This document shows, one piece after another, positions 37,234 to 64,000 of a stretch of DNA of 64,000 bases. The DNA comes from Promethearchaeota archaeon. GTDB taxonomy: Archaea; Asgardarchaeota; Lokiarchaeia; Sigyniarchaeales; SOKP01. Location of the stretch: the NCBI GenBank assembly GCA_048938005.1, contig JBHLMQ010000011.1, positions 1 through 64,000 on the forward strand. The letters are read 5' to 3'. The notes beneath the pieces were generated by a model, which was not told the origin of the DNA, searched no databases, and saw only the letters and a program-made list of their open reading frames with translations. Made by a program: the position numbers and the translations under genes. Within the stretch, counting starts at the first letter, position 1. The number at the start of each line of letters is the position of its first letter.

Positions 37234-38967
37234 ATGGTTGAAAATAAACCTGGTAAGAAGGAGAAAAAGAAGTTAATAGCTCGGTTGGGGAAAAAACAAG
37301 TAATTTCTGTAGGAATAATATCATCAGTAGCAATAGCAGTGATTATTAGCGGTATTTATTTCTTTACAATACCAGAGGTAAGAGGTGATGAAATTATCAT
37401 TGGTTTGAACGATGCTCCAAATTCTATCGATCCACTTAAGAATCCAACTCCAAAATATGTAAATCTAATCATAATTGATCAAATTGCGGAAGGATTATTT
37501 GCTTACGACCAAAACAAAACGGATACTCCCATTACTCCTAATCTAGCATTGAATGGGAGTTGGAGCCTTGATCACCTAAATTTCACTTGTACTCTAAGAA
37601 GTAATGTCACATTCCACGATGGAACACCATTTAATGCTACAGCTGTAAAATGGAACTTTGATAGAATTTATAAATTTATTGAAATTATGCCGCAATATGA
37701 CACGATGTATTGGTATCCTGCATATTTAGACTCAGAAGGTAATCCAATCATAAATCGCACTGAAATAGTAAATGATTATACTGTAAAATTTGTCTTAAAC
37801 AAACCTTATGTTCCTATAAGGGATTTACTTACCCTCTGGAACTCTTACATACTTTCCCCGAATTCTACTCCAGATGACGAATTCATCGATATTAGGACTG
37901 GGAAGCTAGTCGGAACTGGCCCTTTTATTTTTGATTCCTGTGAGGTAGATTTCTACGGTGAGAGTTTGAAAACAGATATGCATGCTAATCCAAATTATTG
38001 GGGTGGAACACCCTCAATTAATATACTGTCATTTCTTGCATTAAATTCTGGTACAGAAAGAATGGAAAGAATGTTATCTGGAGAGCTTTCATATACTATG
38101 GGACCTCGTGATGATAGTGTACTCGATATATACAGAAACACTCCCGGAATTACTGTAGTTCCAAAAACAAGATTGAATTTATTTTATCTTGGTATGAATA
38201 ACAACACAATAGATGTCACAATGAGAAGGGCAATTTCTTATGCTTTTAATTATACTCGCCATATTGAAGAATATTGGGGAGGACATGCAGAGAGAGCAAG
38301 ATCTCCTCTTTCAAATAGGATGCGTTATTCTAACTGGGAGGATTTTGATGTGCCAGATTATAATATTACAAGAGCAAGACAAATCTTAAAAGATGCGAAT
38401 TGGCCTGGAACAAGTGGGTTAACCGCAAACGATAATATAACTACTGGAAACGAGTGGGAAATGATAGCAAATAGTTCAACACCTCTAAGAATATATAATT
38501 TTTCGACTTGTACTTCATGGATGGAATTCGTAGCTAATCTAACAATTGCAGATCTCAAACAGATTGGAGTGAAAGTAAATATTCTTAAAATGGGAGGTGT
38601 TGAATTTTTTGATAAATTATATGAAGGTGAACACGATATTTTTACGGCAGGATGGGGAGTTACTCGTACGGACCCTGTTGATGTTATCAACCCATTATAC
38701 TCAAGTAAAGTAGATGGGGTTAGTAATTATATTAATTTCAATGATACAAAAGTACAACAATGGATGGAACAAGCTCTTGAAGAATTTAATGAAACCAAAA
38801 GGGAACAATTATACTTTAAGATTCAACAGCGCTTTATTGAACAGCTTAATCCATTCCTATGGCTAGCTCATCCTATAGATTATGATATTTGGGATTCAGA
38901 TGTAAAAGGAATCCCAATAGATGGAGCTCCATTGAGACTTATATTAAAATATTGTTATTTAACTTAA
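37234..38967 (+). CDS. Family 5 solute-binding protein, membrane-anchored (cassette 1)
   Basis: LR..V.FHDGTPFNATAVKW and GTGPF motifs; Lys-rich N-terminus followed by one TM. Confidence 0.88.
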   Translation: MVENKPGKKEKKKLIARLGKKQVISVGIISSVAIAVIISGIYFFTIPEVRGDEIIIGLNDAPNSIDPLKNPTPKYVNLIIIDQIAEGLFAYDQNKTDTPITPNLALNGSWSLDHLNFTCTLRSNVTFHDGTPFNATAVKWNFDRIYKFIEIMPQYDTMYWYPAYLDSEGNPIINRTEIVNDYTVKFVLNKPYVPIRDLLTLWNSYILSPNSTPDDEFIDIRTGKLVGTGPFIFDSCEVDFYGESLKTDMHANPNYWGGTPSINILSFLALNSGTERMERMLSGELSYTMGPRDDSVLDIYRNTPGITVVPKTRLNLFYLGMNNNTIDVTMRRAISYAFNYTRHIEEYWGGHAERARSPLSNRMRYSNWEDFDVPDYNITRARQILKDANWPGTSGLTANDNITTGNEWEMIANSSTPLRIYNFSTCTSWMEFVANLTIADLKQIGVKVNILKMGGVEFFDKLYEGEHDIFTAGWGVTRTDPVDVINPLYSSKVDGVSNYINFNDTKVQQWMEQALEEFNETKREQLYFKIQQRFIEQLNPFLWLAHPIDYDIWDSDVKGIPIDGAPLRLILKYCYLT

Positions 38968-38977
38968 TTAAACGAAG

Positions 38978-39967
38978 TTAAGTTGGGACACTATATAGAT
39001 TCCAAAAATAATCTCCTCCATCCCATTTAAATAAAGTGAAATTATAGTTATTTTGAGTAGGAAAATCTTTGGAATAAAAAAATTGTCCTGCCATTAATGG
39101 TAAGGTATCCCTCTCGAAGCCTATCCATGTATTTTGTCCTTCAACGCCGAAACCAGTTTTATTATACAATGTAAATTGAGCCCCGATATTAGGTGAATAA
39201 TCATTATAGATTAAAGAGATGTATCCAGTTTTTGTAATTCCAGTACCAGTAATATTGGCACCCATTTCTTCAAATTGATAAATATCAATAGTAATATAAC
39301 CTATTTCATTAACAAAAGTCAATGTACAATTTTGATTATATTGATTGTTATAAGCTTTTAATGTTATATCTCCATTATTGACAATTCCAGTTACATTGCC
39401 TAAAATGTTACAGGAAGTAAAATCATAAAAAATATTACCATTAATGACATTTGTGAATACGTTATTTAGGTTAATTCCCATTGGTGTGATCACTTCGACT
39501 GCCCCTTCTAGAACTGATGAATTAATATCAAAAATAACATCAGCTCGTAATAAAACATTTATGTTAATATTTGCTTTATGTAGATTTGAAAAATCCGCTA
39601 TCATGTCTGATTTTATTTCTAAAGTGAAATTTATTGGAGAAGTCAAGTTTTCCCAATAAATATTCAATAGATCTAAGTACGATTTTCCATCTAAGTTTGG
39701 ACCTGCCATCTCAATATTTACGTCTATTTTTACAAGATAATCAACCGGTTGAGTATTATAATTTATATTGATTTTACCTACATCAGCATTAAGATTCAAT
39801 TGTCTTTCAAGAGGGTGTGTAGTTGATGAATATACATATGTAAGGGATTCATCAATCCTACTATAATTTGAATATTCAGCTAATAGAATGACGGTTGGAA
39901 TACTTATAATAATAAGAGCAAAAGTAATGTTTATTATGATAAGTATGGTTTTATAATTTCTCTCCAT
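38978..39967 (-). CDS. Membrane-anchored beta-solenoid-like protein (cassette 1)
   Basis: N-terminal TM; LNLNADVGKI and GANITG motifs; paralog of 29490, 47849 and 57121. Confidence 0.72.
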   Translation of the reverse strand: MERNYKTILIIINITFALIIISIPTVILLAEYSNYSRIDESLTYVYSSTTHPLERQLNLNADVGKININYNTQPVDYLVKIDVNIEMAGPNLDGKSYLDLLNIYWENLTSPINFTLEIKSDMIADFSNLHKANININVLLRADVIFDINSSVLEGAVEVITPMGINLNNVFTNVINGNIFYDFTSCNILGNVTGIVNNGDITLKAYNNQYNQNCTLTFVNEIGYITIDIYQFEEMGANITGTGITKTGYISLIYNDYSPNIGAQFTLYNKTGFGVEGQNTWIGFERDTLPLMAGQFFYSKDFPTQNNYNFTLFKWDGGDYFWNLYSVPT

Positions 39968-40007
39968 TATTACAATTCTTGAAAGATTACAAATTTCTCT
40001 AAGTAAT

Positions 40008-40033
40008 TAGATAAGATAAGTTTGTATTTAAAT
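40008..40033 (-). promoter_or_regulatory. Conserved promoter motif upstream of the beta-solenoid genes
   Basis: TTAGATAAGA(T/G)AG-N4/5-TATTTAAAT recurs at about 40008, 48918 and 58157; it contains a TATA-like ATTTAAATA on the minus strand. Confidence 0.6.
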
Positions 40034-40150
40034 TGTTTACCAAAAATAATCCTATATAGCCCTCTATTGAAATTTATCAAAAAAGCATAATTTATTAATA
40101 TTGAAATTCCTTAATAGATATTTATTGATTAATTTAACTTAGCAGATGTT

Positions 40151-41143
40151 ATGACATTCGATCCTCTAGAACGTTTTTTCTCAAGCATGGCTATTTTTCT
40201 ATTATTTATTTGTAGTCTTTTATATATCTCCAGGGGATTTAAAAGAGACGATAAAAATGAAAGAATTTTAATGTTCGGATTTGGAGTTTTTTCGTTTAAG
40301 ATTGCCTTAACAAGACTATTTTTTTATATCATCGACTATTTTTTGATCGGAACTTACACTGGCGATTTAAATATTATTATTCAGACTTACGATGTCGTAA
40401 ATTATATTTTTCTATATTTCTACTTATATCTATATATCCAAGTTTTTATAAGTACAATAGTTATAATGACCATATTTATTTGGTCGTCATTCAAGTCAAA
40501 ACATGAATTTCAGGCAATCTCATCAGTTATAGCGATCGGATTTGCCATATTTTTAATTGGATGGAGTTTTGAGGCATTTATTATAAAAAATTTAAGAATA
40601 TTTACTCCTGCAATACCTCCGATATTTATAATAATGGGAGTTCTTATAACTATTTCACCGTTAATAGGCTATATTGAATTCTTTTCAAAACGCATTGTCA
40701 AAGTATTTATTTTAATCATGATAAGTTTACTCGCAATATATATAGGATTAACTTTAATTTTTAATATTCAATTGGTTGATTTGGTCCTAATTATAATTTG
40801 GATAGCCGTTTTTACTCTCATTTTAACAATAGGATATATATTTTATAATTATGTGAAAAGAAGAGAATCTGGCAAGTATAAGGAAGAACTAAAAGATACA
40901 TTAAGAATTTTTACCAAACCTCCTAAATTTGATATACAAGAAATCAAATATAGTAGAGAAAAAGAATTATGTCTGGTGTGCAAAAATAAGATTTCAGGAT
41001 TGACATATGTTTGTCCTAAATGTGGTGCATGGTACTGTTTAGCCTGTTGTGAAGCCTTAACTGAGTTAGAAAACGCTTGTTGGGGATGCGAAACACCTTT
41101 TGATAAGTTTAAATCTGTAAAATATATGAATAAAAATTATTGA
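40151..41143 (+). CDS. ~7TM membrane protein with C-terminal C4C4 RING-like zinc finger (cassette 1)
   Basis: Seven hydrophobic segments by eye; Cx2Cx10Cx2Cx4Cx2Cx10Cx2C tail. Confidence 0.8.
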   Translation: MTFDPLERFFSSMAIFLLFICSLLYISRGFKRDDKNERILMFGFGVFSFKIALTRLFFYIIDYFLIGTYTGDLNIIIQTYDVVNYIFLYFYLYLYIQVFISTIVIMTIFIWSSFKSKHEFQAISSVIAIGFAIFLIGWSFEAFIIKNLRIFTPAIPPIFIIMGVLITISPLIGYIEFFSKRIVKVFILIMISLLAIYIGLTLIFNIQLVDLVLIIIWIAVFTLILTIGYIFYNYVKRRESGKYKEELKDTLRIFTKPPKFDIQEIKYSREKELCLVCKNKISGLTYVCPKCGAWYCLACCEALTELENACWGCETPFDKFKSVKYMNKNY

Positions 41144-41173: not shown

Positions 41174-41371
41174 GTGAAGTTAATGATTGATTTTATTTTT
41201 TTAATTCTAATTATTTTCTTAATAATTTCATTTCTTACTTCATTAATTATATCAATATGGGTTTATAGAGATGCAAAAAACAGGGATCTAAATGCTTTCC
41301 TATGGATTTTAATAATATGGTTGATCCCTAGCTTATTTGGATTATATTTTTATCTAAAAAGTAGAGAATAA
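41174..41371 (+). CDS. Small membrane protein, PLDc_N-like (cassette 1)
   Basis: IWVYRDAK.R..NA..W...W.IP...G...Y motif; paralog of 59460. Confidence 0.7.
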   Translation: MKLMIDFIFLILIIFLIISFLTSLIISIWVYRDAKNRDLNAFLWILIIWLIPSLFGLYFYLKSRE

Positions 41372-41530
41372 TTATTAAAAAATATACATCCTTATATCAT
41401 TAGAGAATATCGTAAAGTCTTTTTGATTATAATCAATAAATTTACTTCAATTAGAATTAATATCTATAAATAAATTAGCTAGAAGCATAAAAACAGAAAG
41501 CTACACAATTATGGAGGGGTATAATTAATC

Positions 41531-42610
41531 CTGGCTCAAATTTTATTAACAGGAGAGGAAGGTGTAGGGAAATTAACAATCTTGAATCTATTCCCAGGTG
41601 AAAATATTTTAGAAATAGACTTACATTTGAATGAAATTTTTAAAAAATCAATTGAGATAAGAGGGCTCAATGGTATAAAACAATGTATGTTAAGAGTTAT
41701 CGATTTAAAAGAATTAGTTAGGAATTTAAGATCATATAAAGATCTATTACAATCAATTGATATAATTTGTATTATCACAAATTCGCAACTAAGAAATTTA
41801 AAAAGTACTCGTATATTGTTATCAAAACTAAAACAAAAAGTCCCTGAAGCAAATTATTATGTAATTGCTAATTTTCAAGATAGAAAGCGAATAGTTTTAG
41901 AAGTAGAAGAAGTTGAAAAAATGTTAGAAGAAAAAACGTTTGGATTTTCAGCAGTTCAGAAAGATTCTATGGATAAATTAATTTCTATTATTAAAAATAT
42001 GTTAAAATTAACAAAATTAGAGAAAGAGATAAAAACTATCTCTAAGATAGAAATTATATCAAAAGAGGAAAAGAAGGAATCTATTATTAAAGCCAAGGAG
42101 AATTATTCAAATATTTGGTCAGAATTAGAGGAAGCAAGAATATTAGATAATCAAGGAAAAAAGCTCATTGCTGCAAAAAAGTTCTCCAGTGTTGCCTCTC
42201 ATCTTAAAGAACTTGGTTCAGAAATAGAACTTAAACAAGAAGGAGAAAAGATTAATGGTTTACATTATTTGTGTAAAGCATGGGAGTTTATGGCACTTGC
42301 TGAAGAATATAAAGATCCTAAAAATTATTTAGAAGCAGCAAATCTCTTTACCGAGGCTAGTGAATGTATTCATGATAGTAAACTAAAACTATTAGCCTTA
42401 GGAAATTCAGAGTTATGTAGAGCACTAAAGTTAGGGCTTGAACTCTGTAAACTGAATCAAACTAAGAATAACTTAGAATATTACCCAAAAATAAAAATAT
42501 TGATTAAAAAAGCTGTGGATTTATACAGAAAGGGTGGTTTTGAAAAAGAAGCAGAGTGGGCTTTAGATAAATCCTCTCATTTTAATGCCACCAATCACTC
42601 TAGTCCATAG
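41531..42610 (+). CDS. Degenerate small-GTPase-like domain fused to a helical domain (cassette 1, C-terminally shortened)
   Basis: The P-loop ILLTGEEGVGKLT lies in frame upstream of the ORF-track TTG (41582); ANFQD and FSAV motifs; paralog of 50284. Confidence 0.72.
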   Translation: MAQILLTGEEGVGKLTILNLFPGENILEIDLHLNEIFKKSIEIRGLNGIKQCMLRVIDLKELVRNLRSYKDLLQSIDIICIITNSQLRNLKSTRILLSKLKQKVPEANYYVIANFQDRKRIVLEVEEVEKMLEEKTFGFSAVQKDSMDKLISIIKNMLKLTKLEKEIKTISKIEIISKEEKKESIIKAKENYSNIWSELEEARILDNQGKKLIAAKKFSSVASHLKELGSEIELKQEGEKINGLHYLCKAWEFMALAEEYKDPKNYLEAANLFTEASECIHDSKLKLLALGNSELCRALKLGLELCKLNQTKNNLEYYPKIKILIKKAVDLYRKGGFEKEAEWALDKSSHFNATNHSSP

Positions 42611-42838
42611 TTCTAATTTATCATTTTCTTTTAAACCAAAATCTTGAACGGCTTCTCTTATGGATAAGGAATTAGGTAATTCTTTACCTTTATAGACTAA
42701 AGCAAATGATCGATCTTCTAAGCTCATTGTGCCTAAATGTTTAACAACTATATTTATGATACTTTCAATCATATGTTTTTCATTAACATCTATTTTAATT
42801 ATTTTCCCTTTTCTCGTATCTTCAACTGATAGTATCAT
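42563..42838 (-). CDS. Ubiquitin-like protein 1
   Basis: Beta-grasp-like pattern LVYKGKEL and LELWTRVIGG followed by IKMRGFI; two paralogs nearby. Confidence 0.75.
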   Translation of the reverse strand: MILSVEDTRKGKIIKIDVNEKHMIESIINIVVKHLGTMSLEDRSFALVYKGKELPNSLSIREAVQDFGLKENDKLELWTRVIGGIKMRGFI

Positions 42839-42955: not shown

Positions 42956-42998
42956 ATTTTTAGATTTAACTTCGGAATATTTTAAAAAGTTCGAAGTT
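42956..42998 (-). promoter_or_regulatory. Cassette motif copy A (upstream of Ubl 1)
   Basis: 42/43 identical to the reverse complement of 44587-44629. Confidence 0.8.
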
Positions 42999-44586: not shown

Positions 44587-44629
44587 AACTTCGAACTTTT
44601 TAAAATATTCCGAAGCTAAATCTAAAAAT
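44587..44629 (+). promoter_or_regulatory. Cassette motif copy B (upstream of the secreted protein gene)
   Basis: aacttcgaactttttaaaatattccgaagctaaatctaaaaat; inverted relative to copy A. Confidence 0.8.
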
Positions 44630-44686: not shown

Positions 44687-45373
44687 ATGAAAAAATCTAA
44701 CTTAATGAAAAGTTTATTGGTGATAATTACTTCCTCAATATTTTTTTCGTGCTTTCTCCCGATTGCTTATTCTGATGAAGTTGGAATTTTCGATGGTATG
44801 GAAGTTAAACATACTTATACTCTCTCCCAAATGCCAGGAACAGAAATACCTATGATCTTTACGTTCTCTAAGTTGTCAGATGACATGTTTCATATTGAAA
44901 ATGAATTGAAGGCTCCTATTTATGATACAGGTTCTTGGGATGTAAATACCAGCACAAGAGTTATATCAAATGTGAAGAAATTTGGCCCAGACGAAGGTGA
45001 TCATGCGGTGTTTTGGATTTATACTGATGTTTCCCTTAATGATCAATTTTTGATGTGTAATTTATGGAAGGGCCAGCTTTCCCCTCCGGGTGACACTCTT
45101 TTCAATGTTACTGGTGAAGCGATGCATGGTTCTATGGCAGTTTGGATATTAGAAGATGCTTATGGAAGTGAACTATGGTATGAGAAAACTAAAGGATTTT
45201 TTGTAAATGGCACAATTAGCTATGCTCCAGAATGGAATCATTATGAGTTCGTGGAGACCAATGCCCTTCGTACAAGTGGAGCAGCGATTCCAGGATACAG
45301 TTATCTCTTCTTAATTAGTATTATAATTGCTGTCTCAATTATTATACTGAAAAAGCAGAAAATCAAAAAATAA
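44687..45373 (+). CDS. Secreted/surface protein with IPGY-TM-basic sorting tail (cassette 1)
   Basis: Signal peptide; GSWDVN and WYEK motifs; ends IPGY + TM + KKQKIKK; paralog of 62793. Confidence 0.8.
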   Translation: MKKSNLMKSLLVIITSSIFFSCFLPIAYSDEVGIFDGMEVKHTYTLSQMPGTEIPMIFTFSKLSDDMFHIENELKAPIYDTGSWDVNTSTRVISNVKKFGPDEGDHAVFWIYTDVSLNDQFLMCNLWKGQLSPPGDTLFNVTGEAMHGSMAVWILEDAYGSELWYEKTKGFFVNGTISYAPEWNHYEFVETNALRTSGAAIPGYSYLFLISIIIAVSIIILKKQKIKK

Positions 45374-52020: not shown

Positions 52021-52060
52021 ATTTTTAGATTTACATTCGTAACTTATCACAAAGTTCAAA
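52021..52060 (-). promoter_or_regulatory. Cassette motif copy D (upstream of Ubl 3)
   Basis: 35/40 identical to the reverse complement of 53600-53639. Confidence 0.75.
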
Positions 52061-57120: not shown

Positions 57121-58116
57121 TTAGCTATTATTGAGATCAAGTACCAAATAGAGCCCATTTGAATTATTAAATAATAAATTATAGTTATTTTTAGTTGGAT
57201 AATCATCGGACCATAGATAAAAAATATCTTGCTCATCTGAAGGAATAGAATTGAATCCTATAACCTGATTCATAGCTTGACGTAAAGAGAGATCATCAGC
57301 ATTGTAATATAAAGTAAAGTATGCCCCAACATCTGTATTATCATCTTTATACTTAAATCTAATATTACCATGATCATGAGAGATGGTACCAGAAACGTTT
57401 GCATTCATATCAGTATATTGAAAAATTTCAATTAAGAAATCTCCTGATCCAGTATTGAGAACCCAAGTAGTGTTTTGTGAGTATTCTATATTATATGTTT
57501 TTAATTCTATATTTCCTGTTTCCTGGATAATTCCGGTTAAATTACCTTCTAAAATACAGTAGGAAAAGTCATAGTGAATGTTGCCTTTTGAAATGTTAGT
57601 TAGTATATTCCCAACAGAAATACCATATGGAACTGCTATTTTAACACCTCCTTGAACATTGACAACTACACTAATATCACATATTATATCTGCTTTAAGC
57701 GCTACAGCTATGTTGACATTCTTTATAAGGGATAATATTTCAGCTTGATCTATACCTGCTTTTAGCTCCATGCTAAAGTTTACGATACCGCTTGTATTTT
57801 GCCAAACAATCTTGAAATAATCTGAATAATTTTTTTCAATTAAATTTGGACCTATCATTTCAATACTTACCTCAATTTTGGCATCATAATCAACTGGGGG
57901 ATCAATATATTGTATTTCAATATTTCCTATATCAACATATAGGTTTAATTTGTCAAGATAAGGAGGTGAAATTGGAGCATATTTATAAGTAAGAAACTTA
58001 TTAAGCTTACCATAAGATGAGAGCCCAACTGAGAGAAATGTGATTGGAGCGGCAATAATAAAACTGAACACAATTACAATCATTATAGCAATAGCACTTA
58101 TAACATTCCTAGCCAT
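57121..58116 (-). CDS. Membrane-anchored beta-solenoid-like protein (cassette 3)
   Basis: Paralog of 38978 and 47849. Confidence 0.72.
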   Translation of the reverse strand: MARNVISAIAIMIVIVFSFIIAAPITFLSVGLSSYGKLNKFLTYKYAPISPPYLDKLNLYVDIGNIEIQYIDPPVDYDAKIEVSIEMIGPNLIEKNYSDYFKIVWQNTSGIVNFSMELKAGIDQAEILSLIKNVNIAVALKADIICDISVVVNVQGGVKIAVPYGISVGNILTNISKGNIHYDFSYCILEGNLTGIIQETGNIELKTYNIEYSQNTTWVLNTGSGDFLIEIFQYTDMNANVSGTISHDHGNIRFKYKDDNTDVGAYFTLYYNADDLSLRQAMNQVIGFNSIPSDEQDIFYLWSDDYPTKNNYNLLFNNSNGLYLVLDLNNS

Positions 58117-58339: not shown

Positions 58340-59407
58340 ATTATTTTTATTGTTTATGACGCATTAGAGCGTTTTTTTGCAGGTTTTGCGATTTTTACAT
58401 TAATAATTAGCAGTTTAATGTATGTATCTCGAGGTCGTAAAAGAGAAATTATACATGAAAAAATGCTAATGTACGGATTTGCAAGCTTTTGGCTAAGTAT
58501 TGGATTGGCACGTCTTTTCTTTTATTTCTCTGATTTTTTTTTAGAAGGGACTTATACGGGTGATTTAAGCATAATAATTCAAACTTATGACATCATTCAC
58601 TATACTTTTCTTTATTTCTATTTATATTTTTATGTCTATATCTTCATTAATATAATATCTTTAACCATATTGTTTATTTGGTTTTCTATGAGATCGAAAA
58701 AGGAATTCCAAGCAATATCCTCTGTGATGGCAATTGGATTTACTGTATGTTTGATAGGATGGGCTTTTGAGACAATGATTGTAAAAGATTTAAATCTAAT
58801 TTCTCCAATAATCCCCCCTATACTTGTCTTAATTGGTGCGATCATCGCAATAGCCCCTTTAATTATCAATCTTGAGTTTTTTTATAGATCTTTAGCTATT
58901 TGGTTTGTAGCAATTTTAATTAGTTTTATATTGATATTTTTAGGATTGACATTTTTTACTAATTTTCCTTTACCAATAATAAGTCTAATAATAATCTCTA
59001 TTTCAGCTCTGGCACTGGTATTGTTAACAGTTTATATATCGATTAGCATAGTTAAGAGAGTTAGAACACGAGAAGATACTTCTCCGGTTAAAAAAGAGGA
59101 ACTCAAAGATTTTCTTACTATTTTCACTAAACCTCAAACCATTACTGAAGAAGAACTTAATACTTATAGAGAAAAGAAAATTTGCGTCGTATGTAAAAGT
59201 AAAGTTTCACGACTAAATTATGTGTGTCCCGAATGTGATGTCTTATATTGCATTAGATGCTCTAAAGCGTTAGTTAATTTAGAAAATGCATGTTGGGTAT
59301 GTGATACTCCTATCAATATATCAGATCAGGTTCCAGTTTTGAAAGTAGAGGAATTATTAAAAGAAACAGAATTAAATCCTAATGACAAAGAAATTAGAAA
59401 TAATTAA
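58340..59407 (+). CDS. ~7TM membrane protein with C4C4 RING-like tail (cassette 3)
   Basis: Same Cys spacing. The first TM (YDALERFFAGFAIFTLIISSL) lies in frame upstream of ATG 58418, back to ATT 58340. Confidence 0.8.
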   Translation: MIFIVYDALERFFAGFAIFTLIISSLMYVSRGRKREIIHEKMLMYGFASFWLSIGLARLFFYFSDFFLEGTYTGDLSIIIQTYDIIHYTFLYFYLYFYVYIFINIISLTILFIWFSMRSKKEFQAISSVMAIGFTVCLIGWAFETMIVKDLNLISPIIPPILVLIGAIIAIAPLIINLEFFYRSLAIWFVAILISFILIFLGLTFFTNFPLPIISLIIISISALALVLLTVYISISIVKRVRTREDTSPVKKEELKDFLTIFTKPQTITEEELNTYREKKICVVCKSKVSRLNYVCPECDVLYCIRCSKALVNLENACWVCDTPINISDQVPVLKVEELLKETELNPNDKEIRNN

Positions 59408-59459: not shown

Positions 59460-59681
59460 ATGATTTTTGACCTTTTCTCTTTAATGATGACGCTTCTTTT
59501 GGTTTTTATATTAATCCCATTTATAATTTTATCTTTTATAGCGATTTGGGTATATAGAGATGCTAAAAAAAAAAGGATTAATGCAGCTATATGGGTTATC
59601 ATCATATGGATAATTCCTTTTTTTATTGGTGTAATTATATACTTTATAATGAGAGATAAAATCTCAGAAGAAGTTCAATGA
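59460..59681 (+). CDS. Small membrane protein, PLDc_N-like (cassette 3)
   Basis: IWVYRDAKKKRINAAIW motif; paralog of 41174. Confidence 0.72.
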   Translation: MIFDLFSLMMTLLLVFILIPFIILSFIAIWVYRDAKKKRINAAIWVIIIWIIPFFIGVIIYFIMRDKISEEVQ

Positions 59682-59701: not shown

Positions 59702-60583
59702 TCAATCATAAATTTCAAAAACGTTATTTAACATTTCCTTTATTATTGAAAAAATCTTATTTTCAGCATCTTTTGATTTTGCTGAAAAACCAAATGTTCT
59801 AACTCCAAAAATTTCCTCAACTTCTTCTGGTTCGAGAGAGACCTTATCTAAATCTTGAAAGTTTGCGATTACAAAGAAGGTTGCTTTCTTTACTTTTGGT
59901 CTTAATGATAAGAATAATTTCTGGGTTTTACTTATATTAGTTGCACCCGAATTAGTAACAAGACAAATTATATCAATAGAATCTAAGAGTTGTCTGTAAG
60001 ATCTTGAATTATCAACCAATTCCTTTAAATTAATTTCCCTTAAAATACACTCATTAATACTCTTAAAATCAGGTAAGAAAATAGATTTTTGTATAACTTC
60101 TCTCATGTCTTCATCTAATTCAATTATTGTTTCTCCTGCAAATAAGTTCATTATAGTAGTCTTACCAACACCATCCTCGCCAACCAACAAAATTATAGGA
60201 GGAATAAAAATGTGTTTTTCAACAAATTCATCAAAACTTTCAAATTTTCCTATATCATGATCCCAATTTATTAAATCATCATGATATCGTTTGATAAATT
60301 CCTTTTTTAGAAGTTCCAATTTATTCCTTAGTTTTTCCTCTGGGTCATTGATATCAGCTAATAATATAAAAATGCAACGCTTATCATTATCATAAGAATA
60401 GATAATGTTAAAATTTCTAAAATTTAATGATCTTATTTCTCCTCCTCCAATCTTTTTAGAAATATCAATAGTCGCTGTGAGAAATGCACTTACAAAATCC
60501 TCATCAATCTGATTTGTACCAAATAGCGTTTTTGAATAACAAAGTATACCGCTAGATAATATAATTAAAACCTTAGAAATCAT
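59702..60583 (-). CDS. Longin-like domain fused to a degenerate small-GTPase-like domain (cassette 3)
   Basis: N-terminal IILSSGILCYSK...FVSAFLTA...GGGEIRSL longin-like pattern, then GEDGVGKTT, ANFQD and FSAK. Confidence 0.75.
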   Translation of the reverse strand: MISKVLIILSSGILCYSKTLFGTNQIDEDFVSAFLTATIDISKKIGGGEIRSLNFRNFNIIYSYDNDKRCIFILLADINDPEEKLRNKLELLKKEFIKRYHDDLINWDHDIGKFESFDEFVEKHIFIPPIILLVGEDGVGKTTIMNLFAGETIIELDEDMREVIQKSIFLPDFKSINECILREINLKELVDNSRSYRQLLDSIDIICLVTNSGATNISKTQKLFLSLRPKVKKATFFVIANFQDLDKVSLEPEEVEEIFGVRTFGFSAKSKDAENKIFSIIKEMLNNVFEIYD

Positions 60584-60654: not shown

Positions 60655-62559
60655 TCATTCTAAATCTTCAATCTCAGCAAGAAAAATATCTGCTATTTTA
60701 TGCCATTTCTGTTTAATATCTAGTTCTTTTGACATCGAATCTGTTAATTCTTTTCCCTTTTTAAGATATTTAACTGCAGACTTCTTATTTCCGAGCTCTT
60801 TATAACATATACCTAACTTTATATATGTCTGATTAATATACCATTCATCAATAGCAATTTCAATTACTTTTTGAAATTGTTCTACAGCATTTTCATACTC
60901 TTCGAAATACATCAAAATTTCTCCATAGGTATCATAGTAAGTCCCATTATCAGGGTCAAGTTCTATGATATTGCGAATGAGATTTAATGATTCTTCTTTT
61001 TTATTTAGATATTGCAACCAATAAGCCTTATAAATAAGTATCTCGTTATCTTTAGGATATTTTTGGAGTAATTCATTAATGATGGTTAATCCGGCTTCAA
61101 GATTCCCTATTCTTTTAAGTATAGACGCTTTTTTTATTTTAATGTCTATCTCATTTTTAGGAAAAATTTCAAGCATATAATCCAATAATGCCAAAATTTC
61201 ATCAAATTGGCCAAAATAAATTAGAATCCTAATTTTTGAGTTATATAAGTCTAGCGATTTTGGATTCAATTCAATTTTTTTATTAATTTCGTTAAGTTCT
61301 TCCCGATATTGAATTTCTAGCTTTTCAGGACTTTTTGATTGAAAGATTTTTGGTATGTTTTGCCAAATAATTCCTTCTAATTTATCATATGTTTCTATTA
61401 ATTCCCTCTCAGCTTCGATTTTATATGCCAAATAATTAATATATCCAGGTATAAACTCTTTTAACGCTTCCTTTAAACCTTTATCAAGCAAAGTTTCACA
61501 GATTTCTTCTACAATATCATTTAAAGTACTTGCTGCATCTGAGGATCTAGCGAATAATTTGTTTAAATATATAAATTCTGTTAAATGATTCTCAGTAATC
61601 GCACGCATTATTGTCTCCAATTTTTCATATTCCTGAAAATAATAATGTTTATCTGGTGGTACTCTTAATTCAAAAAATTTTAGTGGATATATATTATTCT
61701 CAACAATTTCATCAACATAATAGGTTAGAGTATTCTCCTTAATTCTATAATTCTTAGAAAATTCTTCAGCTGAAACGTAATCGGGAAATTGATCTGGATG
61801 ATTAATTGAAAGAAATAATAAAATCTTATGAAAATCTTCCTCGTTTTTTAACATAGATTTAACTCTATTATAATCTAATTTTAAAACATTGTTTAAAAAT
61901 CTAAATTGGATACGCTTATCCTTAATATTATAACTATTAAAAAAATTGATTGTTTGTTTTGTGATTTCTTCAATTCGCTTACTTTCTTCTTCCAAGATTG
62001 TTTGTCTGTCCAAATCGTAATATTTCAGCATCCCTGAATACTCAGATTTGCCTAATTGAGTAATTCTATATTCTCTATTTTCATCATCCTTTCTAATAAA
62101 TCCATTTTTTATCATCATTTTCATTGTTTTTGATAATGATGATTGATTAATTGAAAGAGGTTCTTCAAGAAATTCAGACCATTTACAATAATTATTATTG
62201 TACACCATCCATAAAATCCAATGATCGTAATTCCTTCCACTTTTTAAGATTGTCTCAGGAGGATAACTTAACTTTCTTTCCTTCTTTTCAACTTTAGATA
62301 AGTCATAAAATCTCCTTTTTCCATCTAATGTAATTTTATAATGTCCTTTTGATAGTTTAGTGATGTATCCTTCACTCTTTAATACATTAAGGTGTCTTGA
62401 TAAAGTTGATGTGGGAATTTCAAGTGGGCTCTCAAGAAAATTAGACCACTCACATTCATCGTTATTAAATAACATCCAAAGAATAATATGCTCATAATTC
62501 TTTTTGTCTACCGTTGGAGGATTAATGATCTCTTGAGGGGGGTAATTAATCGTTGACAT
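60655..62559 (-). CDS. Tandem winged-HTH regulator with C-terminal TPR repeats (cassette 3)
   Basis: Same wHTH repeats as 43189 and 52067; TPR-like IELDPDNGTYYDTYGEIL...YENAVEQFQKVI. Confidence 0.82.
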   Translation of the reverse strand: MSTINYPPQEIINPPTVDKKNYEHIILWMLFNNDECEWSNFLESPLEIPTSTLSRHLNVLKSEGYITKLSKGHYKITLDGKRRFYDLSKVEKKERKLSYPPETILKSGRNYDHWILWMVYNNNYCKWSEFLEEPLSINQSSLSKTMKMMIKNGFIRKDDENREYRITQLGKSEYSGMLKYYDLDRQTILEEESKRIEEITKQTINFFNSYNIKDKRIQFRFLNNVLKLDYNRVKSMLKNEEDFHKILLFLSINHPDQFPDYVSAEEFSKNYRIKENTLTYYVDEIVENNIYPLKFFELRVPPDKHYYFQEYEKLETIMRAITENHLTEFIYLNKLFARSSDAASTLNDIVEEICETLLDKGLKEALKEFIPGYINYLAYKIEAERELIETYDKLEGIIWQNIPKIFQSKSPEKLEIQYREELNEINKKIELNPKSLDLYNSKIRILIYFGQFDEILALLDYMLEIFPKNEIDIKIKKASILKRIGNLEAGLTIINELLQKYPKDNEILIYKAYWLQYLNKKEESLNLIRNIIELDPDNGTYYDTYGEILMYFEEYENAVEQFQKVIEIAIDEWYINQTYIKLGICYKELGNKKSAVKYLKKGKELTDSMSKELDIKQKWHKIADIFLAEIEDLE

Positions 62560-62686: not shown

Positions 62687-62792
62687 TAACAGGATCTATC
62701 TGTTATATTGATCTGATAACTATGATCGAAATTTACATAAAAAGAGGAGTTGATAAAAAATAAAACAACGTAAAAATAGGATTATTAAAGTC

Positions 62793-63479
62793 TTGAAATA
62801 TAGCTTTCTACTAATTATATTAATAGGTCTATTCTCGCAATTTATTAGTTATGGCCGTTCTGCTCCGTCAGGAATATTCGATGGTTTGTATATTAGTCAT
62901 ATACATAGCCTTTCTACATATCCTGAAGAAATTCCTACAAATCTCTCATATACTCATGTTTCAGGTGATATTTATCATGTTGAATGGGCTTGGGGAGGTT
63001 CAATCGGTTCTACGGGTTCTTGGGATGTCAATATTAACACTAGAATTGTCTCAAATGTGCAAGTTTTTGGTCCTCCAAATGGATCTCATCCTGCATTTTG
63101 GATTCACACAAATATTTCACTTTATGATGAAATTATATCATCCTGTGCTTTAACTTCTGCTGGTACCTTTACCATTTCTAATAATTTAGTTATACCCTAT
63201 GGAAATATCTCTATAAATATTTGGGAAATGACAGATCCAGATAATACTAAAGTATGGTATGAAAAGAGTACTGGAATTCTTTTAAATGGCACGTTTCGTA
63301 AGGGAACAATCCATTGGGAGAGTTTTGAATATGTTGATACTAATGCTGTTTTCAATGAAGCAACAATACCTTCAGATGGGGGCACAATTCCAGGATACAA
63401 TTATTTCTTACTAATTAGTATGTTTTGCTTAATTGGAATAATAATAATTCAATACAAATCAAAAAAAAGGAAAAAATGA
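62793..63479 (+). CDS. Secreted/surface protein with IPGY-TM-basic sorting tail (cassette 3)
   Basis: Paralog of 44687 (GIFDG, GSWDVN, FGP, FWI.T, WYEK, IPGY). Confidence 0.8.
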   Translation: MKYSFLLIILIGLFSQFISYGRSAPSGIFDGLYISHIHSLSTYPEEIPTNLSYTHVSGDIYHVEWAWGGSIGSTGSWDVNINTRIVSNVQVFGPPNGSHPAFWIHTNISLYDEIISSCALTSAGTFTISNNLVIPYGNISINIWEMTDPDNTKVWYEKSTGILLNGTFRKGTIHWESFEYVDTNAVFNEATIPSDGGTIPGYNYFLLISMFCLIGIIIIQYKSKKRKK

Positions 63480-63721
63480 TAATATTAGCAAGTAGAAATT
63501 ATAGATTTATTTTTGCAATATTAAAATAATTAAAAGATATGGAAAAAGGAGGAGTAAGGTTAAAAAAGCACACATAAACTTTTATTCCTCCATTCTATCT
63601 ACCTTTTTTTTAAAATTATACAAAAAAAGTGGAGTGAAAATATTCAACGTTTTTTAATATTTAATAGAATTTATTACTTGAAATTCCATAACAACAGAAC
63701 TATATAATCGAATAAAAGTTA

Positions 63722-63821
63722 TAGATAATATCATATTTATTACTCTATTTATATCTGTTTTCCAATATTGCCATGATAGTTCGGAATTCCCATGGAACTG
63801 CGATGATAAAAACTATAAATG
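63722..63821 (+). repeat. ~100-bp upstream repeat, copy 2
   Basis: Direct repeat of 62588-62686, ending in the TATA-like TATAAAT. Confidence 0.85.
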
Positions 63822-63905
63822 GAATTAAATCATCACTTTTAATTGGTCATCCATAAGATGATCACTAAAAAATTTAAAAAATATAAAAAAAAGAGATTGA
63901 AAAAA

Positions 63906-64000
63906 ATGAAAAATACAAAAATACTATTAGGTGCAATTCTAGGGGTTTTAGTACTTAGCTTTGTACCCACAGTTCTCGGATATGGAACTATAAAAAGATC
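63906..64000 (+). CDS. Secreted protein, 5' part only
   Basis: MKNTKILLGAILGVLVLSFVPTVLGYGTIKR, signal-peptide-like; runs off the window. Confidence 0.65.
   Translation, partial: MKNTKILLGAILGVLVLSFVPTVLGYGTIKR

What the first reader, a model, noticed from the sequence alone, without database searches (positions are those of the whole stretch)
37234..64000. Triplicated ~9-kb cassette: candidate sensor / 7TM-RING / GTPase / ubiquitin-like / wHTH signalling system
Seen: three diverged units starting at 37234, 46120 and 55304 share the order solute-binding protein(+), beta-solenoid membrane protein(-), ~7TM-C4C4 protein(+), optional small membrane protein, degenerate GTPase fusion, Ubl (units 1-2), tandem wHTH regulator, secreted protein(+). 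No ABC permease/ATPase, His kinase, E1 or E2 is present. Shared upstream motifs link the Ubl and secreted genes. Inference: each unit is a ligand-specific pathway in which an external binder signals through a membrane RING-like protein and GTPase-like/Ubl parts to a transcription factor that controls surface proteins. I know of no described system with this composition, but I could not search for one.
Basis: partly seen in the sequence, partly recalled or inferred. Interest (0 to 1): 0.92.

Follow-up and report, generated by a model that had tools for sequence, protein, structure and literature searches.

The report
Membrane RING ubiquitin-like signalling cassettes, Asgard
Three diverged copies of a conserved Asgard-archaeal gene cassette that seems to couple cell-surface binding proteins, through a seven-helix membrane protein with a RING-type ubiquitin-ligase tail, to a ubiquitin-like modifier, GTPase-like proteins and a gene regulator; this would be a membrane-receptor form of ubiquitin signalling outside eukaryotes.

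Summary
The triplication is real. Three units (from 37234, 46120 and 54577/55292) share gene order, with 36-64% protein identity between homologous copies.

The genes are linked by more than chance:
- The same cassettes recur in the same order in many Asgard (Promethearchaeota) MAGs of at least two genera.
- Their proteins co-diverge.

Orthologous cassettes carry Ubl-E2-E1-JAB between the small membrane gene and the GTPase gene. This genome keeps that set at contig C9:63076-70299.

What the parts are:
- The 7TM protein ends in an invariant C4C4 finger. It resembles RINGs and is predicted to dock on the cognate E2 (ipSAE 0.69, best control 0.00).
- The "GTPase fusion" combines a longin-like domain, an Arf-like G domain with a degenerate G3 motif, and a helical domain with a Bro1-like fold (lead only).
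- The "solenoid" is a Toast-rack/DUF4097 protein.

A 34-bp palindrome-containing motif occurs five times in the 3.7-Mb genome, each time upstream of a Ubl or secreted-protein gene of units 1-2.

Verdict: a new membrane-E3 variant of the archaeal ubiquitin-like system. The direction of signalling is inferred.

The parts
37234..38967 (+). SBP1: membrane-anchored family-5 solute-binding protein (unit 1)
   Evidence: Pfam SBP_bac_5 at E 4e-64. It has an N-terminal Lys-rich tail followed by a hydrophobic helix (sequence). No permease lies on the contig.
38978..39967 (-). SOL1: N-terminally anchored beta-solenoid protein of Toast-rack/DUF4097 type
   Evidence: No Pfam hit. The ESM Atlas structure search gives TM 0.60-0.79 to Toast_rack_N and DUF4097 clusters. 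Distances co-vary with SBP at r=0.93.
40151..41143 (+). TMZ1: 7TM protein with a cytosolic C4C4 RING-like finger; candidate membrane E3
   Evidence: 8 Cys are invariant in 19 sequences. The AF2 model shows 7 TM helices plus a finger. The finger matches the TRIM37 RING (Foldseek prob 0.98; profile E 0.017). Predicted docking on the E2 scores 0.69 against 0.00 for the best control.
41174..41371 (+). SM1: small two-helix membrane protein directly after TMZ
   Evidence: 48% identical to SM3 over 31 aa. Present next to 26 of 40 full-length TMZ genes in related loci.
41525..42610 (+). GTP1: Arf-like pseudo-GTPase plus helical (Bro1-like?) domain. The first canonical start is at 41582.
   Evidence: 55% identical to GTP2. 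A degenerate P-loop (GKLT) lies upstream of the first start codon. Alignment.
42563..42838 (-). UBL1a: ubiquitin-like modifier ending VIGG plus 7 residues
   Evidence: Pfam ubiquitin/TUG-UBL1 hits are weak. The GG is invariant in 33 of 33 unique homologues. The profile hits ubiquitin.
42959..42992 (-). Operator-like motif upstream of UBL1a
43279..44532 (+). WH1: tandem wHTH regulator
   Evidence: Pfam HTH_45 at 32.8 bits (cut-off 25.5) and HTH_34 at 27.4 bits (cut-off 27). NCBIfam Sso10a, Sta1 and Lrs14 families score below cut-off.
44593..44626 (+). Operator-like motif upstream of SEC1. It matches the UBL1a copy at 42 of 43 bases.
44687..45373 (+). SEC1: surface protein with a signal peptide and a Loki-CTERM-like sorting tail
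   Evidence: NCBIfam Loki-CTERM at 18.4 bits (cut-off 19.9), E 0.002. 36% identical to SEC3.
45467..45727 (-). UBL1b: second Ubl, ending VIGGKI
45827..45860 (-). Operator-like motif upstream of UBL1b
46120..47817 (+). SBP2
   Evidence: Pfam SBP_bac_5 at E 1.3e-57.
47849..48913 (-). SOL2
   Evidence: 46% identical to SOL1.
49094..50071 (+). TMZ2
   Evidence: 63% identical to TMZ1. An 84%-identical orthologue lies in G014.
50284..51567 (+). GTP2: Arf-like G domain (intact P-loop GEKSVGKS) plus helical domain
51608..51910 (-). UBL2 (start probably at 51880)
   Evidence: Pfam TUG-UBL1 at 28.0 bits (cut-off 23.3). Alignment.
52024..52057 (-). Operator-like motif upstream of UBL2
52067..53326 (-). 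WH2
   Evidence: Pfam HTH_45 at E 3.3e-10. 62% identical to WH1.
53603..53636 (+). Operator-like motif upstream of SEC2. Its palindrome variant is close to that of UBL2.
53696..54340 (+). SEC2: secreted protein, unrelated to SEC1 and SEC3
   Evidence: A 68%-identical orthologue sits at the same place in G014.
54577..55122 (+). Ras-family small GTPase; first gene of unit 3
   Evidence: Pfam Ras at E 2.3e-41. A Ras gene lies upstream of the SBP in many orthologous cassettes. A paralogue lies beside the C9 core locus.
55292..57103 (+). SBP3
   Evidence: Pfam SBP_bac_5 at E 5.6e-59.
57121..58116 (-). SOL3
58364..59407 (+). TMZ3 (first ATG at 58418; homology starts at 58364)
   Evidence: Pfam zf-C3HC4_3 at E 0.0015, below cut-off.
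59460..59681 (+). SM3
59702..60583 (-). GTP3: longin-like domain plus Arf-like G domain (P-loop GEDGVGKT), with no helical tail
   Evidence: The N-terminal profile hits the AP-2 sigma longin domain at E 0.0032.
60655..62559 (-). WH3: three wHTH domains, a middle domain and a TPR tail
   Evidence: Pfam HTH_34 at E 3.6e-10 plus TPR families. The PDB profile hits TPR proteins only.
62793..63479 (+). SEC3: surface protein with a Loki-CTERM-like tail

Best explanation
Each unit is a paralogous specificity cassette of a ubiquitin-like conjugation system. Its E3 is a seven-helix membrane protein (TMZ) with a cytosolic C4C4 RING-type finger.

Shown or strongly indicated:
- The cassette is conserved and inherited as a block.
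- The Ubl ends in a di-glycine.
- A cognate E1 (ThiF type), E2 (HPN motif plus catalytic Cys) and JAB protease belong to the same cassette in sister genomes. In this genome they lie at contig C9.
- The finger is RING-like and is predicted to dock on the E2 through the first zinc loop, the central helix and the CW loop.

Inferred:
- The three window cassettes use the single C9 E1/E2/JAB set in trans.
- The extracellular, membrane-anchored solute-binding protein and its co-diverging Toast-rack partner report a ligand or envelope state to the conserved outer loop of TMZ.
- TMZ then directs E2~Ubl to cytosolic targets in the cassette. Candidates are the longin/Arf-like GTPase-like protein, the Ras-like GTPase, the wHTH protein, and the Lys-rich tail of the binder.
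- The wHTH regulator acts on the palindromic operator in front of the Ubl and surface-protein genes, so the output is a change of surface proteins and of Ubl supply.
- JAB matures the Ubl precursors that carry C-terminal extensions and reverses conjugation.
For: Triplication.

Conserved order:
- 11 other genomes of the genus have full-length TMZ, often as two tandem units.
- The search for related loci returned 47 loci from Promethearchaeota MAGs.
- Of 40 full-length TMZ genes, these numbers have each family within 9 kb: Ubl 26, SM 26, GTPase-like 25, SBP 23, SOL 23, wHTH 21, E1/E2 17, JAB 17, Ras 12. One contig is counted twice, and many loci are cut by contig ends.
- The core TMZ-Ubl-E2-E1-JAB-GTPase(-Ras) is also found in genera g14, g16 and g17.

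Ubiquitin-system enzymes:
- E1, E2 and JAB by Pfam: ThiF E 1.5e-46 and 2.6e-47; UQ_con 37.7 and 42.3 bits (cut-off 27); JAB E 7e-13 and 6e-14.
- The E2 has invariant HPNI and Cys116 in 21 sequences.
- The Ubl ends V[IV]GG in 33 of 33 unique sequences, with 0-9 extra residues. The ubiquitin profile match aligns GG with GG.

The finger:
- 8 invariant Cys plus W311.
- TRIM37 RING: Foldseek prob 0.98, TMt 0.52; profile E 0.017.
- Complex prediction scores 0.69 (three runs: 0.72, 0.63, 0.69) against 0.00 for the best of 3 controls. That mark was reached by 58 of 80 solved complexes and 2 of 110 mismatched pairs. Runs agree in at least 55% of contacts, and partner pLDDT is at least 79. RING-E2 complexes are solved, so the pass may be from memory: it shows likeness, not proven binding.

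Co-divergence: all 15 family pairs give r 0.35-0.93, and 0 of 500 permutations reach the observed value. SBP-SOL gives 0.93.

Operator motif:
- 5 in the window against 0.00 expected, and 5 in the genome.
- Variants pair within units: UBL1a with SEC1, and UBL2 with SEC2.
- In related loci it lies upstream of 5 of 33 Ubl and 4 of 15 SEC genes, and of 0 of 331 genes of the other families.
Against: - No biochemical or expression data exist. No RNA run was available.
- Pfam RING families score below their cut-offs (18.8 against 27 bits). The cross-brace zinc arrangement could not be read from coordinates.
- The TMZ model is only moderate (pLDDT 68.5), and its 7TM bundle has no significant relative.
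- Use of the C9 enzymes in trans is inferred. The genome has two further E1/E2 clusters, on C76 and C97.
- Ten TMZ-like genes in related loci (about 27-35% identical) have no cassette neighbours.
- Outside family f1, longin-GTPase genes were not found next to Ub genes with these queries.
- The mirror-tree correlations partly reflect shared descent of blocks, not contact.
- The strict motif was found upstream of a minority of Ubl genes in other genomes and is absent from unit 3.
- The substrates are unknown.
Confidence: 0.6

Rival explanations
1. Ubiquitin-dependent turnover or sorting of surface receptors, not signalling to a regulator. TMZ tags the Lys-rich cytosolic tail of its cognate SBP or other membrane proteins. 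The longin/Arf-like protein, through its Bro1-like helical domain, hands the tagged proteins to ESCRT-III. This would resemble MARCH/Rsp5-type receptor down-regulation, or ERAD-type quality control.
For: - TMZ has a multi-pass membrane RING architecture.
- The SBP N-terminal tails are very Lys-rich (sequence).
- The genome has two Snf7/ESCRT-III genes.
- SBP-SOL pairs multiply (up to 3 per TMZ), as substrates or adaptors would.
Against: - Pfam BRO1 finds nothing at these genes.
- This reading does not explain the conserved wHTH gene or the operator motif in front of the Ubl and SEC genes.
- The genome is AT-rich, so Lys-rich tails are expected anyway.
Confidence: 0.2
2. A conflict or defence system. 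Variable surface sensors detect an invader or competitor and trigger a Ubl/E1/E2/JAB module, as in bacterial Bil or type II CBASS operons.
For: - The E1-E2-JAB-Ubl operon core is present.
- The external parts occur in many copies and diverge strongly: SBP and SOL are about 40% identical, against 51-63% for TMZ.
- The C9 GTPase-like protein is fused to a CN-hydrolase that matches the nitrilase of DRT models at domain level only.
Against: - PADLOC gives only generic E1 and JAB domain hits and names no system. TMZ, SOL, SEC, Ubl and E2 have no hit.
- There is no recognisable toxic effector in the window cassettes.
- The flanking genes are housekeeping genes.
- The locus has stable synteny across species and is not a variable island.
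Confidence: 0.08
3. An SBP-dependent uptake system. The 7TM domain would be a new permease fed by the binder, with the finger, Ubl and GTPase-like parts only regulating it.
For: - SBP_bac_5 proteins normally serve transporters (Pfam).
- SBP and TMZ are always adjacent.
Against: - No ABC permease or ATPase is in any cassette.
- The genome's canonical SBP paralogue on C97 does sit beside permeases. The cassette SBPs therefore form a separate, permease-less set.
Confidence: 0.06
4. A lineage-specific segmental triplication of functionally unrelated neighbours.
For: The three units are tandem and diverged. The full SBP-to-SEC form was seen only in genera g1 and g14.
Against: - The order is conserved in over 20 MAGs, and unit types 1 and 3 are kept as orthologous blocks.
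- E1/E2/JAB are embedded in orthologous cassettes.
- Genome-unique motifs are shared between cassette genes.
- RING-E2 docking is predicted.
Confidence: 0.04

Closest known systems
Archaeal eukaryote-like E1/E2/(RING)E3 ubiquitylation operons (Caldiarchaeum subterraneum, Asgard). PMC5654768 and PMC6043591: search listing and start of abstract only. PMC9192718: passages.
   Same: A Ubl with a GG end, a ThiF-type E1, a UBC E2, a RING-type finger protein and an Rpn11/JAB protease are encoded together. Some Ubls carry a C-terminal extension that needs processing.
   Different: - The RING sits at the end of a 7TM protein, whereas those abstracts describe a small RING protein.
- The operon is extended by a small membrane protein, a longin/Arf-like GTPase-like protein, a Ras GTPase, a tandem-wHTH regulator, SBP and Toast-rack ectoproteins, and a surface protein.
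- Satellite cassettes carry their own Ubl but no E1, E2 or JAB.
Eukaryotic multi-pass membrane RING E3 ligases (Hrd1, MARCH, RNF types; recalled, not tested here).
   Same: A polytopic membrane domain with a cytosolic RING that recruits an E2.
   Different: No sequence or significant fold match of the membrane domain. The finger is C4C4, not RING-H2 or RING-CH. The genes are linked to extracellular binders and a regulator.
Fungal Pal/Rim101 ambient-pH pathway (7TM sensor, helper membrane protein, ubiquitylated adaptor, Bro1-domain protein, transcription factor; recalled).
   Same: Works-like analogy only: a 7TM protein with a small membrane partner, ubiquitin-type modification, a Bro1-like domain (lead) and a transcription factor in one pathway.
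   Different: No homology shown. There is no arrestin and no calpain. The Bro1 likeness is structural only, and Pfam BRO1 does not detect it.
Bacterial Toast-rack systems (LiaF, PspC/DUF4097 fusions) and SBP-coupled sensors (names from Atlas clusters; biology recalled).
   Same: A membrane-anchored beta-solenoid Toast-rack protein is encoded with a membrane sensor and a transcription regulator. An SBP is used without a transporter.
   Different: The transmitter is a RING/Ubl module in place of a histidine kinase or anti-sigma factor. The Toast-rack is predicted to be outside the cell (N-terminal anchor, many N-x-S/T sequons; sequence).
Longin- or roadblock-regulated small GTPases (SR alpha/beta, Rag-Ragulator, adaptor sigma subunits with Arf; Asgard ArfR structures 8oul, 8oum and 8oun appear among the hits).
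   Different: The two are fused in one chain. The G3 DxxGQ motif is replaced (D-L-E-E-L aligned with D-I-G-G-L). G4 reads NFQD. GTP1 has lost its P-loop. The genes are embedded in a ubiquitin-like operon.
Bacterial Bil and type II CBASS E1/E2/JAB operons (10.1101/2023.09.26.559546 and PMC11601596: search listing only).
   Same: Ubl, E1, E2 and JAB lie in one operon.
   Different: Only domain-level PADLOC hits. E1 and E2 are separate genes. A RING E3 and the sensor and regulator genes are present. No effector is recognisable.

Membership tests
Eukaryote-like archaeal ubiquitylation system | Beta-grasp modifier ending in Gly-Gly | tested here: met
   33 of 33 unique Ubls end V[IV]GG with 0-9 further residues. 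The profile aligns to ubiquitin residues 7-77, GG on GG. E is 0.025 for single ubiquitin and 1.7e-23 for a nine-repeat polyubiquitin chain (summed over repeats). Pfam TUG-UBL1 passes its cut-off for UBL2 only.
Eukaryote-like archaeal ubiquitylation system | E1 adenylating enzyme (ThiF fold) encoded with the modifier | tested here: met
   Not in the window. Present at C9:65268-66152 (ThiF, E 2.6e-47) and inside orthologous cassettes (E 1.5e-46; 17 of 40 TMZ neighbourhoods).
Eukaryote-like archaeal ubiquitylation system | E2 with UBC fold, HPN motif and catalytic Cys | tested here: met
   Not in the window. UQ_con scores 42.3 and 37.7 bits against a cut-off of 27. H96-P97-N98 and C116 are invariant in 21 sequences.
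Eukaryote-like archaeal ubiquitylation system | JAMM/MPN+ protease | tested here: met
   Pfam JAB at E 6e-14 and 7e-13. The H-x-H...S-x-x-D motif can be read in the sequences. Not in the window.
Eukaryote-like archaeal ubiquitylation system | ATP-dependent conjugation of the modifier to proteins | not testable with these tools
   Needs biochemistry.
RING-type E3 finger | Eight zinc ligands in RING spacing, with a cross-brace fold | tested here: inconclusive
   The pattern C-x2-C-x10-C-x2-C-x4-C-x2-C-x10-C-x2-C is invariant in 19 sequences. Matches: TRIM37 RING (Foldseek prob 0.98, TMt 0.52, 27% identity; profile E 0.017) and TFIIH p44 C4C4 RING (E 0.14). Ligand pairing could not be read from coordinates.
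RING-type E3 finger | Score above the curated cut-off of a Pfam RING family | tested here: not met
   zf-C3HC4_3 scores 18.8 bits against a cut-off of 27 (TMZ3). C1_2 scores 18.7-24.7 bits against a cut-off of 26.
RING-type E3 finger | Binds an E2 through the zinc loops and central helix | tested here: inconclusive
   Prediction only: score 0.69 against 0.00 for the best control. The mark was reached by 58 of 80 solved complexes and 2 of 110 mismatched pairs. Interface: E2 residues 6-20 and 124-131; finger residues 275-279, 298-302 and 306-312. The pass may come from memory of solved RING-E2 complexes.
Arf-family small GTPase | G-domain fold | tested here: met
Arf-family small GTPase | Intact G1, G3 (DxxGQ) and G4 (NKxD) motifs | tested here: not met
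   G1 is intact in GTP2 and GTP3 but degenerate or untranslated in GTP1. G3 has no Gly or Gln. G4 reads NFQD, with F, Q and D invariant.
Longin domain | Sequence or fold match to longin domains | tested here: inconclusive
   The N-terminal profile (26 sequences) hits AP-2 sigma residues 1-96 at E 0.0032. TRAPP and HPS1 longin proteins appear at E 0.8-0.9. In the model this part shows strand-strand-helix-strand-strand-helix order but only pLDDT 45-70.
Bro1 domain | Fold match covering the domain | tested here: inconclusive
Bro1 domain | Detected by the Pfam BRO1 model | tested here: not met
   PF03097 against the whole genome gives one unrelated 12.2-bit match on C44 and nothing at the GTPase-like genes.
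ABC-transporter solute-binding protein, family 5 | SBP_bac_5 domain | tested here: met
   E 1e-57 to 4e-64. NCBIfam NikA, SapA and DppA models all score far below their cut-offs.
ABC-transporter solute-binding protein, family 5 | Encoded with permease and ATPase genes | tested here: not met
   BPD_transp_1 gives 9 matches in the genome and none on contig C70. None was seen in the mapped cassettes of other genomes with the queries used.
Toast_rack / DUF4097 beta-solenoid | Fold or sequence match | tested here: inconclusive
   Atlas structure search: Toast_rack_N and DUF4097 clusters at TM 0.60-0.73. Feature search: 0.90 for DUF4097. Pfam hmmscan gives no hit and the PDB profile gives no hit.
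wHTH (PadR/ArsR/MarR-like) DNA-binding regulator | wHTH domains above curated cut-offs | tested here: met
   HTH_45 scores 40.3 and 32.8 bits (cut-off 25.5). HTH_34 scores 40.3 bits (cut-off 27). DNA binding itself was not tested.
Known anti-phage defence systems (PADLOC) | System-specific models matched | tested here: not met
   Only generic E1, JAB, nitrilase and wHTH domain hits. 5 of 10 proteins have none.

The most novel reading that the evidence does not exclude
Asgard archaea may have a receptor-type ubiquitin signalling and sorting pathway at the cell membrane.

- A GPCR-topology 7TM protein carries a RING E3.
- It would be gated by an extracellular binding protein paired with a Toast-rack protein.
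- It would ubiquitylate cassette partners.
- It would work with a longin/Arf-like GTPase that carries the first Bro1-like domain seen in archaea, and so link to ESCRT-III.
- It would feed back on a dedicated transcription factor.

This would be a prokaryotic forerunner of eukaryotic receptor ubiquitylation with ESCRT sorting, and of Rim/Pal- or Rag-type nutrient and envelope sensing. The pathway would have diversified by cassette duplication into ligand-specific channels that share one E1/E2/DUB set.
Probability: 0.25. Interest if true: 0.93.

Novelty: new variant of a known kind. Interest (0 to 1): 0.74.

Why it matters
Ubiquitin systems of Asgard archaea are used to argue that eukaryotic protein tagging and ESCRT sorting predate eukaryotes. 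The E3 side and the physiological inputs of those systems are almost unknown.

What these cassettes offer:
- A concrete, conserved candidate for a membrane-embedded E3 with identifiable inputs (surface binders), accessory GTPase-like switches and an output (a regulator with a genome-unique operator).
- Three natural paralogues in one genome, which allow cognate against non-cognate tests.
- A possible Bro1-like domain. [quoted passage not shown]

All 76 database homologues of the 7TM-RING protein are unnamed and carry no Pfam domain.

Tried and rejected
- **SOL:** the PDB profile search found nothing.
- **wHTH protein:** the PDB profile matched only the TPR tail, so the middle domain remains unassigned.
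- **Small membrane protein:** only a sub-threshold PLDc_N hit.
- **Bro1 by sequence:** not found.
- **Defence-system models:** only generic domains.
- **Expression:** no RNA holder was listed. DNA runs were laid only to check the junctions.
- **Spread outside family f1:** longin-GTPase genes of families f7, f12 and f25 were not next to Ub genes with tblastn at 1e-4. This is "not found with these queries", not absence.
- **Phylum search:** the tally of 245 of 301 genomes mostly reflects the helical domain, which is shared with a family of about 1280 aa. I do not use it as evidence for the cassette.
- **First motif search:** a fuzzy search with at most 10 substitutions found only 3 sites. I replaced it with a degenerate pattern.
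- **Literature:** searches, and passages read, gave no description of a 7TM-RING cassette. Supplementary tables of those papers (asCOG neighbourhoods) were closed and may list these families.

Full report
**Observation.** The window is the first 64 kb of a 101-kb contig (C70) of a 3.72-Mb, roughly 29% GC genome. Public relatives are labelled Promethearchaeota, that is Asgard archaea.

After an AlaX-like gene (36479-37186), three units follow. Each contains:
- a membrane-anchored SBP_bac_5 protein (+ strand);
- a divergently oriented beta-rich membrane protein, SOL (- strand);
- a multi-helix membrane protein ending in a C4C4 finger, TMZ (+ strand);
- a small membrane protein, SM (units 1 and 3 only);
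- a P-loop GTPase-like protein;
- a small protein ending in GG, the Ubl (two in unit 1, one in unit 2, none in unit 3);
- a tandem-wHTH protein;
- a secreted protein.

Homologous copies are 36-64% identical, with E-values down to 1e-178. The exception is SEC2, which is unrelated to SEC1 and SEC3. A Ras-family GTPase (54577-55122) precedes SBP3 and belongs to unit 3, judged from other genomes. Upstream of 36.4 kb the genes are housekeeping genes, apart from a distant SOL paralogue at 29490-30584.

**Is the linkage more than a local duplication?** Yes.
- A search with TMZ2 in 40 relatives found full-length matches in 11 other genomes, all of the same genus. Five of them have two matches each: four 6-11 kb apart on one contig (G006, G007, G011, G016), and one (G014) on separate contigs.
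- Mapping all cassette proteins on these stretches gave the same order again and again.
- A pattern scan of one genome per species returned 47 loci from Asgard MAGs. I examined 40 full-length TMZ genes there and in four further loci. One contig is present twice (L061 = L123), and many loci are cut by contig ends.
- Within 9 kb of those 40 genes, the counts are: Ubl 26, SM 26, GTPase-like 25, SBP 23, SOL 23, wHTH 21, E1/E2 17, JAB 17, Ras 12, SEC-type 10. Ten distant TMZ-like genes had none of them.
- Best-hit types agree within cassettes. Type 1 combines TMZ1, SBP1, SOL1, SM1, UBL1a, WH1 and SEC1. Type 3 combines TMZ3, SM3, GTP3 and WH3. The paralogous cassettes are therefore older than the species.
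- Distance matrices of all 15 family pairs correlate (r 0.35-0.93), with 0 of 500 label permutations reaching the observed value. SBP and SOL correlate at r = 0.93. This shows block inheritance, and for SBP-SOL it suggests partnership. It does not prove contact.

**The missing enzymes.** In orthologous type-3 cassettes the roughly 2-kb gap between the GTPase-like gene and the Ubl holds three genes:
- a JAB/MPN+ protease (Pfam E 7e-13);
- a ThiF-type E1 (E 1.5e-46);
- a UBC-type E2 (37.7 bits, cut-off 27).

In the window's unit 3 these genes and the Ubl are absent. SM3 ends at 59681 and GTP3 ends at 59702. Loci L074 and L086 share this reduced form.

The genome keeps the set elsewhere. Contig C9:63076-70299 encodes, in order:
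- a TMZ paralogue (25% identical overall, finger conserved);
- a Ubl;
- an E2 (42.3 bits);
- an E1 (E 2.6e-47);
- a JAB (E 6e-14);
- an 880-aa protein with a longin-like domain, a G domain, a helical domain and a CN-hydrolase;
- a Ras GTPase.

The same core occurs in three further genera of the family. The genome has two other E1/E2 clusters, on C76 and C97, so use of the C9 enzymes by the window's cassettes is an inference.

**The Ubl and the E2.**
- All 33 unique Ubls end V[IV]GG, followed by 0-9 variable residues.
- Their profile aligns to ubiquitin, GG on GG.
- The E2 keeps HPN and the catalytic Cys in 21 of 21 sequences.

**The 7TM-finger protein.**
- Nineteen sequences share eight invariant cysteines (C274 to C313 in TMZ1), W311, and a conserved loop (E)GTYTGD between helices 2 and 3.
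- The AlphaFold model (pLDDT 68.5) has seven membrane helices followed by two short helices and the finger.
- Positive charges lie in loops 1, 3 and 5 and after helix 7. By the positive-inside rule (my inference), the N-terminus is outside and the finger is in the cytosol.
- The finger matches the TRIM37 RING (Foldseek prob 0.98, TMt 0.52, 27% identity; profile E 0.017) and the C4C4 RING of TFIIH p44 (E 0.14). Pfam RING, C1 and B-box families stay below their cut-offs.

Complex prediction of the C9 E2 (residues 1-175, 21-row alignment) with the TMZ1 tail (residues 255-325, 19-row alignment) gave these results:
- Score 0.69 (three runs: 0.72, 0.63, 0.69) against 0.00 for the best of three controls.
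- That mark was reached by 58 of 80 solved complexes and 2 of 110 mismatched pairs. My own alignments were used, so these counts hold only roughly.
- The runs agree in at least 55% of contacts, and partner pLDDT is at least 79.
- Contacts: E2 residues 6-20 and 124-131; finger residues 275-279, 298-302 and 306-312.
- From recalled knowledge, these correspond to helix 1 and the loop after the active site of E2s, and to the two zinc loops and central helix of RINGs.
- RING-E2 complexes are solved, so the pass shows likeness. It does not show that this pair binds.

All 76 database homologues of TMZ1 are "hypothetical protein" or unnamed and carry no Pfam domain.

**The GTPase-like protein.** The full form (C9) has four parts.
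1. **N-terminal domain.** It is about 120 aa long. Its 26-sequence profile hits the AP-2 sigma longin domain over its whole length (E 0.0032), with TRAPP and HPS1 longin proteins at E near 1. It is modelled with low confidence.
4. **CN-hydrolase**.

In the window, GTP3 has parts 1-2. GTP2 has parts 2-3. GTP1 has parts 2-3, with a degenerate P-loop lying before its first start codon.

**The outer parts.**
- SBP1-3 have a Lys-rich N-terminal tail, one hydrophobic helix and many N-x-S/T sequons (sequence). No permease lies on the contig. The SBP paralogue on C97, by contrast, sits next to two permease genes.
- SOL has no Pfam or PDB sequence match. The Atlas model of this very protein aligns with Toast_rack_N and DUF4097 clusters (TM 0.60-0.79), and the feature search agrees (0.90).
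- SEC1 and SEC3 end in a Loki-CTERM-like sorting signal (18.4 bits, cut-off 19.9).

**Regulation.**
- The wHTH proteins pass the cut-offs of HTH_45 and HTH_34.
- A motif GAACTTT-N(16-22)-TAAATCTAAA occurs 5 times in the window (0.00 expected from 100 shuffles). It occurs exactly 5 times in the whole genome.
- The copies lie 100-160 bp upstream of UBL1a, SEC1, UBL1b, UBL2 and SEC2.
- The variable part contains an inverted repeat whose sequence pairs within units. UBL1a and SEC1 match at 42 of 43 bases. UBL2 and SEC2 share GAACTTTGTGA[T/A]AAGTTAC.
- In related loci the motif is upstream of 5 of 33 Ubl and 4 of 15 SEC genes, and of none of 331 genes of the other nine families.
- This fits a unit-specific operator read by the unit's wHTH protein. 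Binding itself is inferred. Unit 3, whose wHTH protein has a TPR tail, lacks the motif.

**Interpretation.** The best-supported reading is a ubiquitin-like conjugation system with a dedicated membrane RING E3. Cassette duplication has expanded it into paralogous channels that share one E1/E2/JAB set.

I think signalling is more likely than mere turnover: surface binder and Toast-rack protein, then 7TM-RING, then Ubl conjugation to cytosolic cassette proteins, then the wHTH regulator, then the Ubl and surface-protein genes. My reason is the conserved regulator and operator. The turnover and ESCRT reading is not excluded and may coexist with signalling.

Known defence systems are not matched. 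A transporter role has no support. The "unrelated neighbours" rival is largely refuted.

**Novelty.** Archaeal E1/E2/RING/Rpn11 operons are known (PMC5654768 and PMC6043591, listing and abstract starts only; PMC9192718, passages). I found no description of any of the following in searches or in the passages read:
- a 7TM-RING E3;
- its linkage to SBP and Toast-rack ectoproteins, a longin/Arf-like protein, a Ras GTPase and a wHTH regulator;
- satellite cassettes with their own Ubl;
- a Bro1-like domain in Asgard archaea.

Supplementary tables were closed and might list these families as asCOGs. I rate it a new variant of a known kind.

Noticed in passing
G000 contig C9:71357-74062 and 74328-76997 (L036:13357-16062 and onward): Two membrane proteins of about 900 aa with extracellular FG-GAP repeats (Pfam FG-GAP_3, E 4e-36) end in the same C4C4 RING-like finger as TMZ. 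The genome has at least 8 further proteins carrying this finger. In another family of the order it sits on proteins of 700-2800 aa. This may be a broad class of receptor-RING proteins.
   Followed up: partly
G000 contig C9:66777-69419 (L036:8777-11419); C62 (L128:3439-7305): The core-locus GTPase-like protein is fused to a carbon-nitrogen hydrolase (Pfam E 1.2e-9). The helical domain plus CN-hydrolase also forms a family of about 1280 aa, found in many genomes of the phylum. The role of an amidase-type enzyme in a Ubl operon is unexplained.
   Followed up: partly
window 29490-30584 (+): A distant SOL (Toast-rack-like) paralogue, 27-34% identical, lies about 6.6 kb upstream of unit 1. A similar gene occupies the same relative place in L040, L044 and L047.
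   Followed up: partly
L082 (contig of a MAG labelled Anoxychlamydiales bacterium), 2333-2563: A bacterial-labelled contig encodes the Asgard-type finger: 40% identical to TMZ1 over residues 251-324 and 45% identical to TMZ4 over 96 aa. Binning error or gene transfer was not resolved.
   Followed up: no
G000 contigs C60:21247-22761 and C92:3881-6355 (L037, L038): Two further wHTH-TPR paralogues (830-852 aa open frames, 45-49% identical to WH3) lie outside any cassette. A Ras-like gene lies next to the C92 copy (L038:6924-7427).
   Followed up: no
G000 contig C9:59771-60823 (L036:1771-2823): A 350-aa protein has an N-terminal domain of about 170 aa fused to a canonical Ras-family G domain (Pfam Ras, E 5.5e-46). 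It lies 2 kb from the core Ub locus.
   Followed up: no
window 41525-41582: The P-loop-like stretch of GTP1 (reading GKLT) lies between a stop codon and the first ATG/GTG/TTG. Several type-1 orthologues also start inside or after the P-loop. Type-1 copies look like pseudo-GTPases.
   Followed up: partly
window 42959-42992, 44593-44626, 45827-45860, 52024-52057, 53603-53636: The operator-like motifs lie unusually far (about 100-160 nt) from the annotated start codons. Either the leaders are long or the true starts or promoters differ from the ORF calls. The UBL2 copy starts only about 10 nt after the stop codon of WH2.
   Followed up: no
window 24246-25274 and 25689-26222: A Kre9/KNH-like Ig domain protein (E 1.8e-21) and a DUF6125 protein (E 6.5e-80) lie upstream of the cassettes. 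Neither is linked to them in other genomes, as far as I looked.
   Followed up: no
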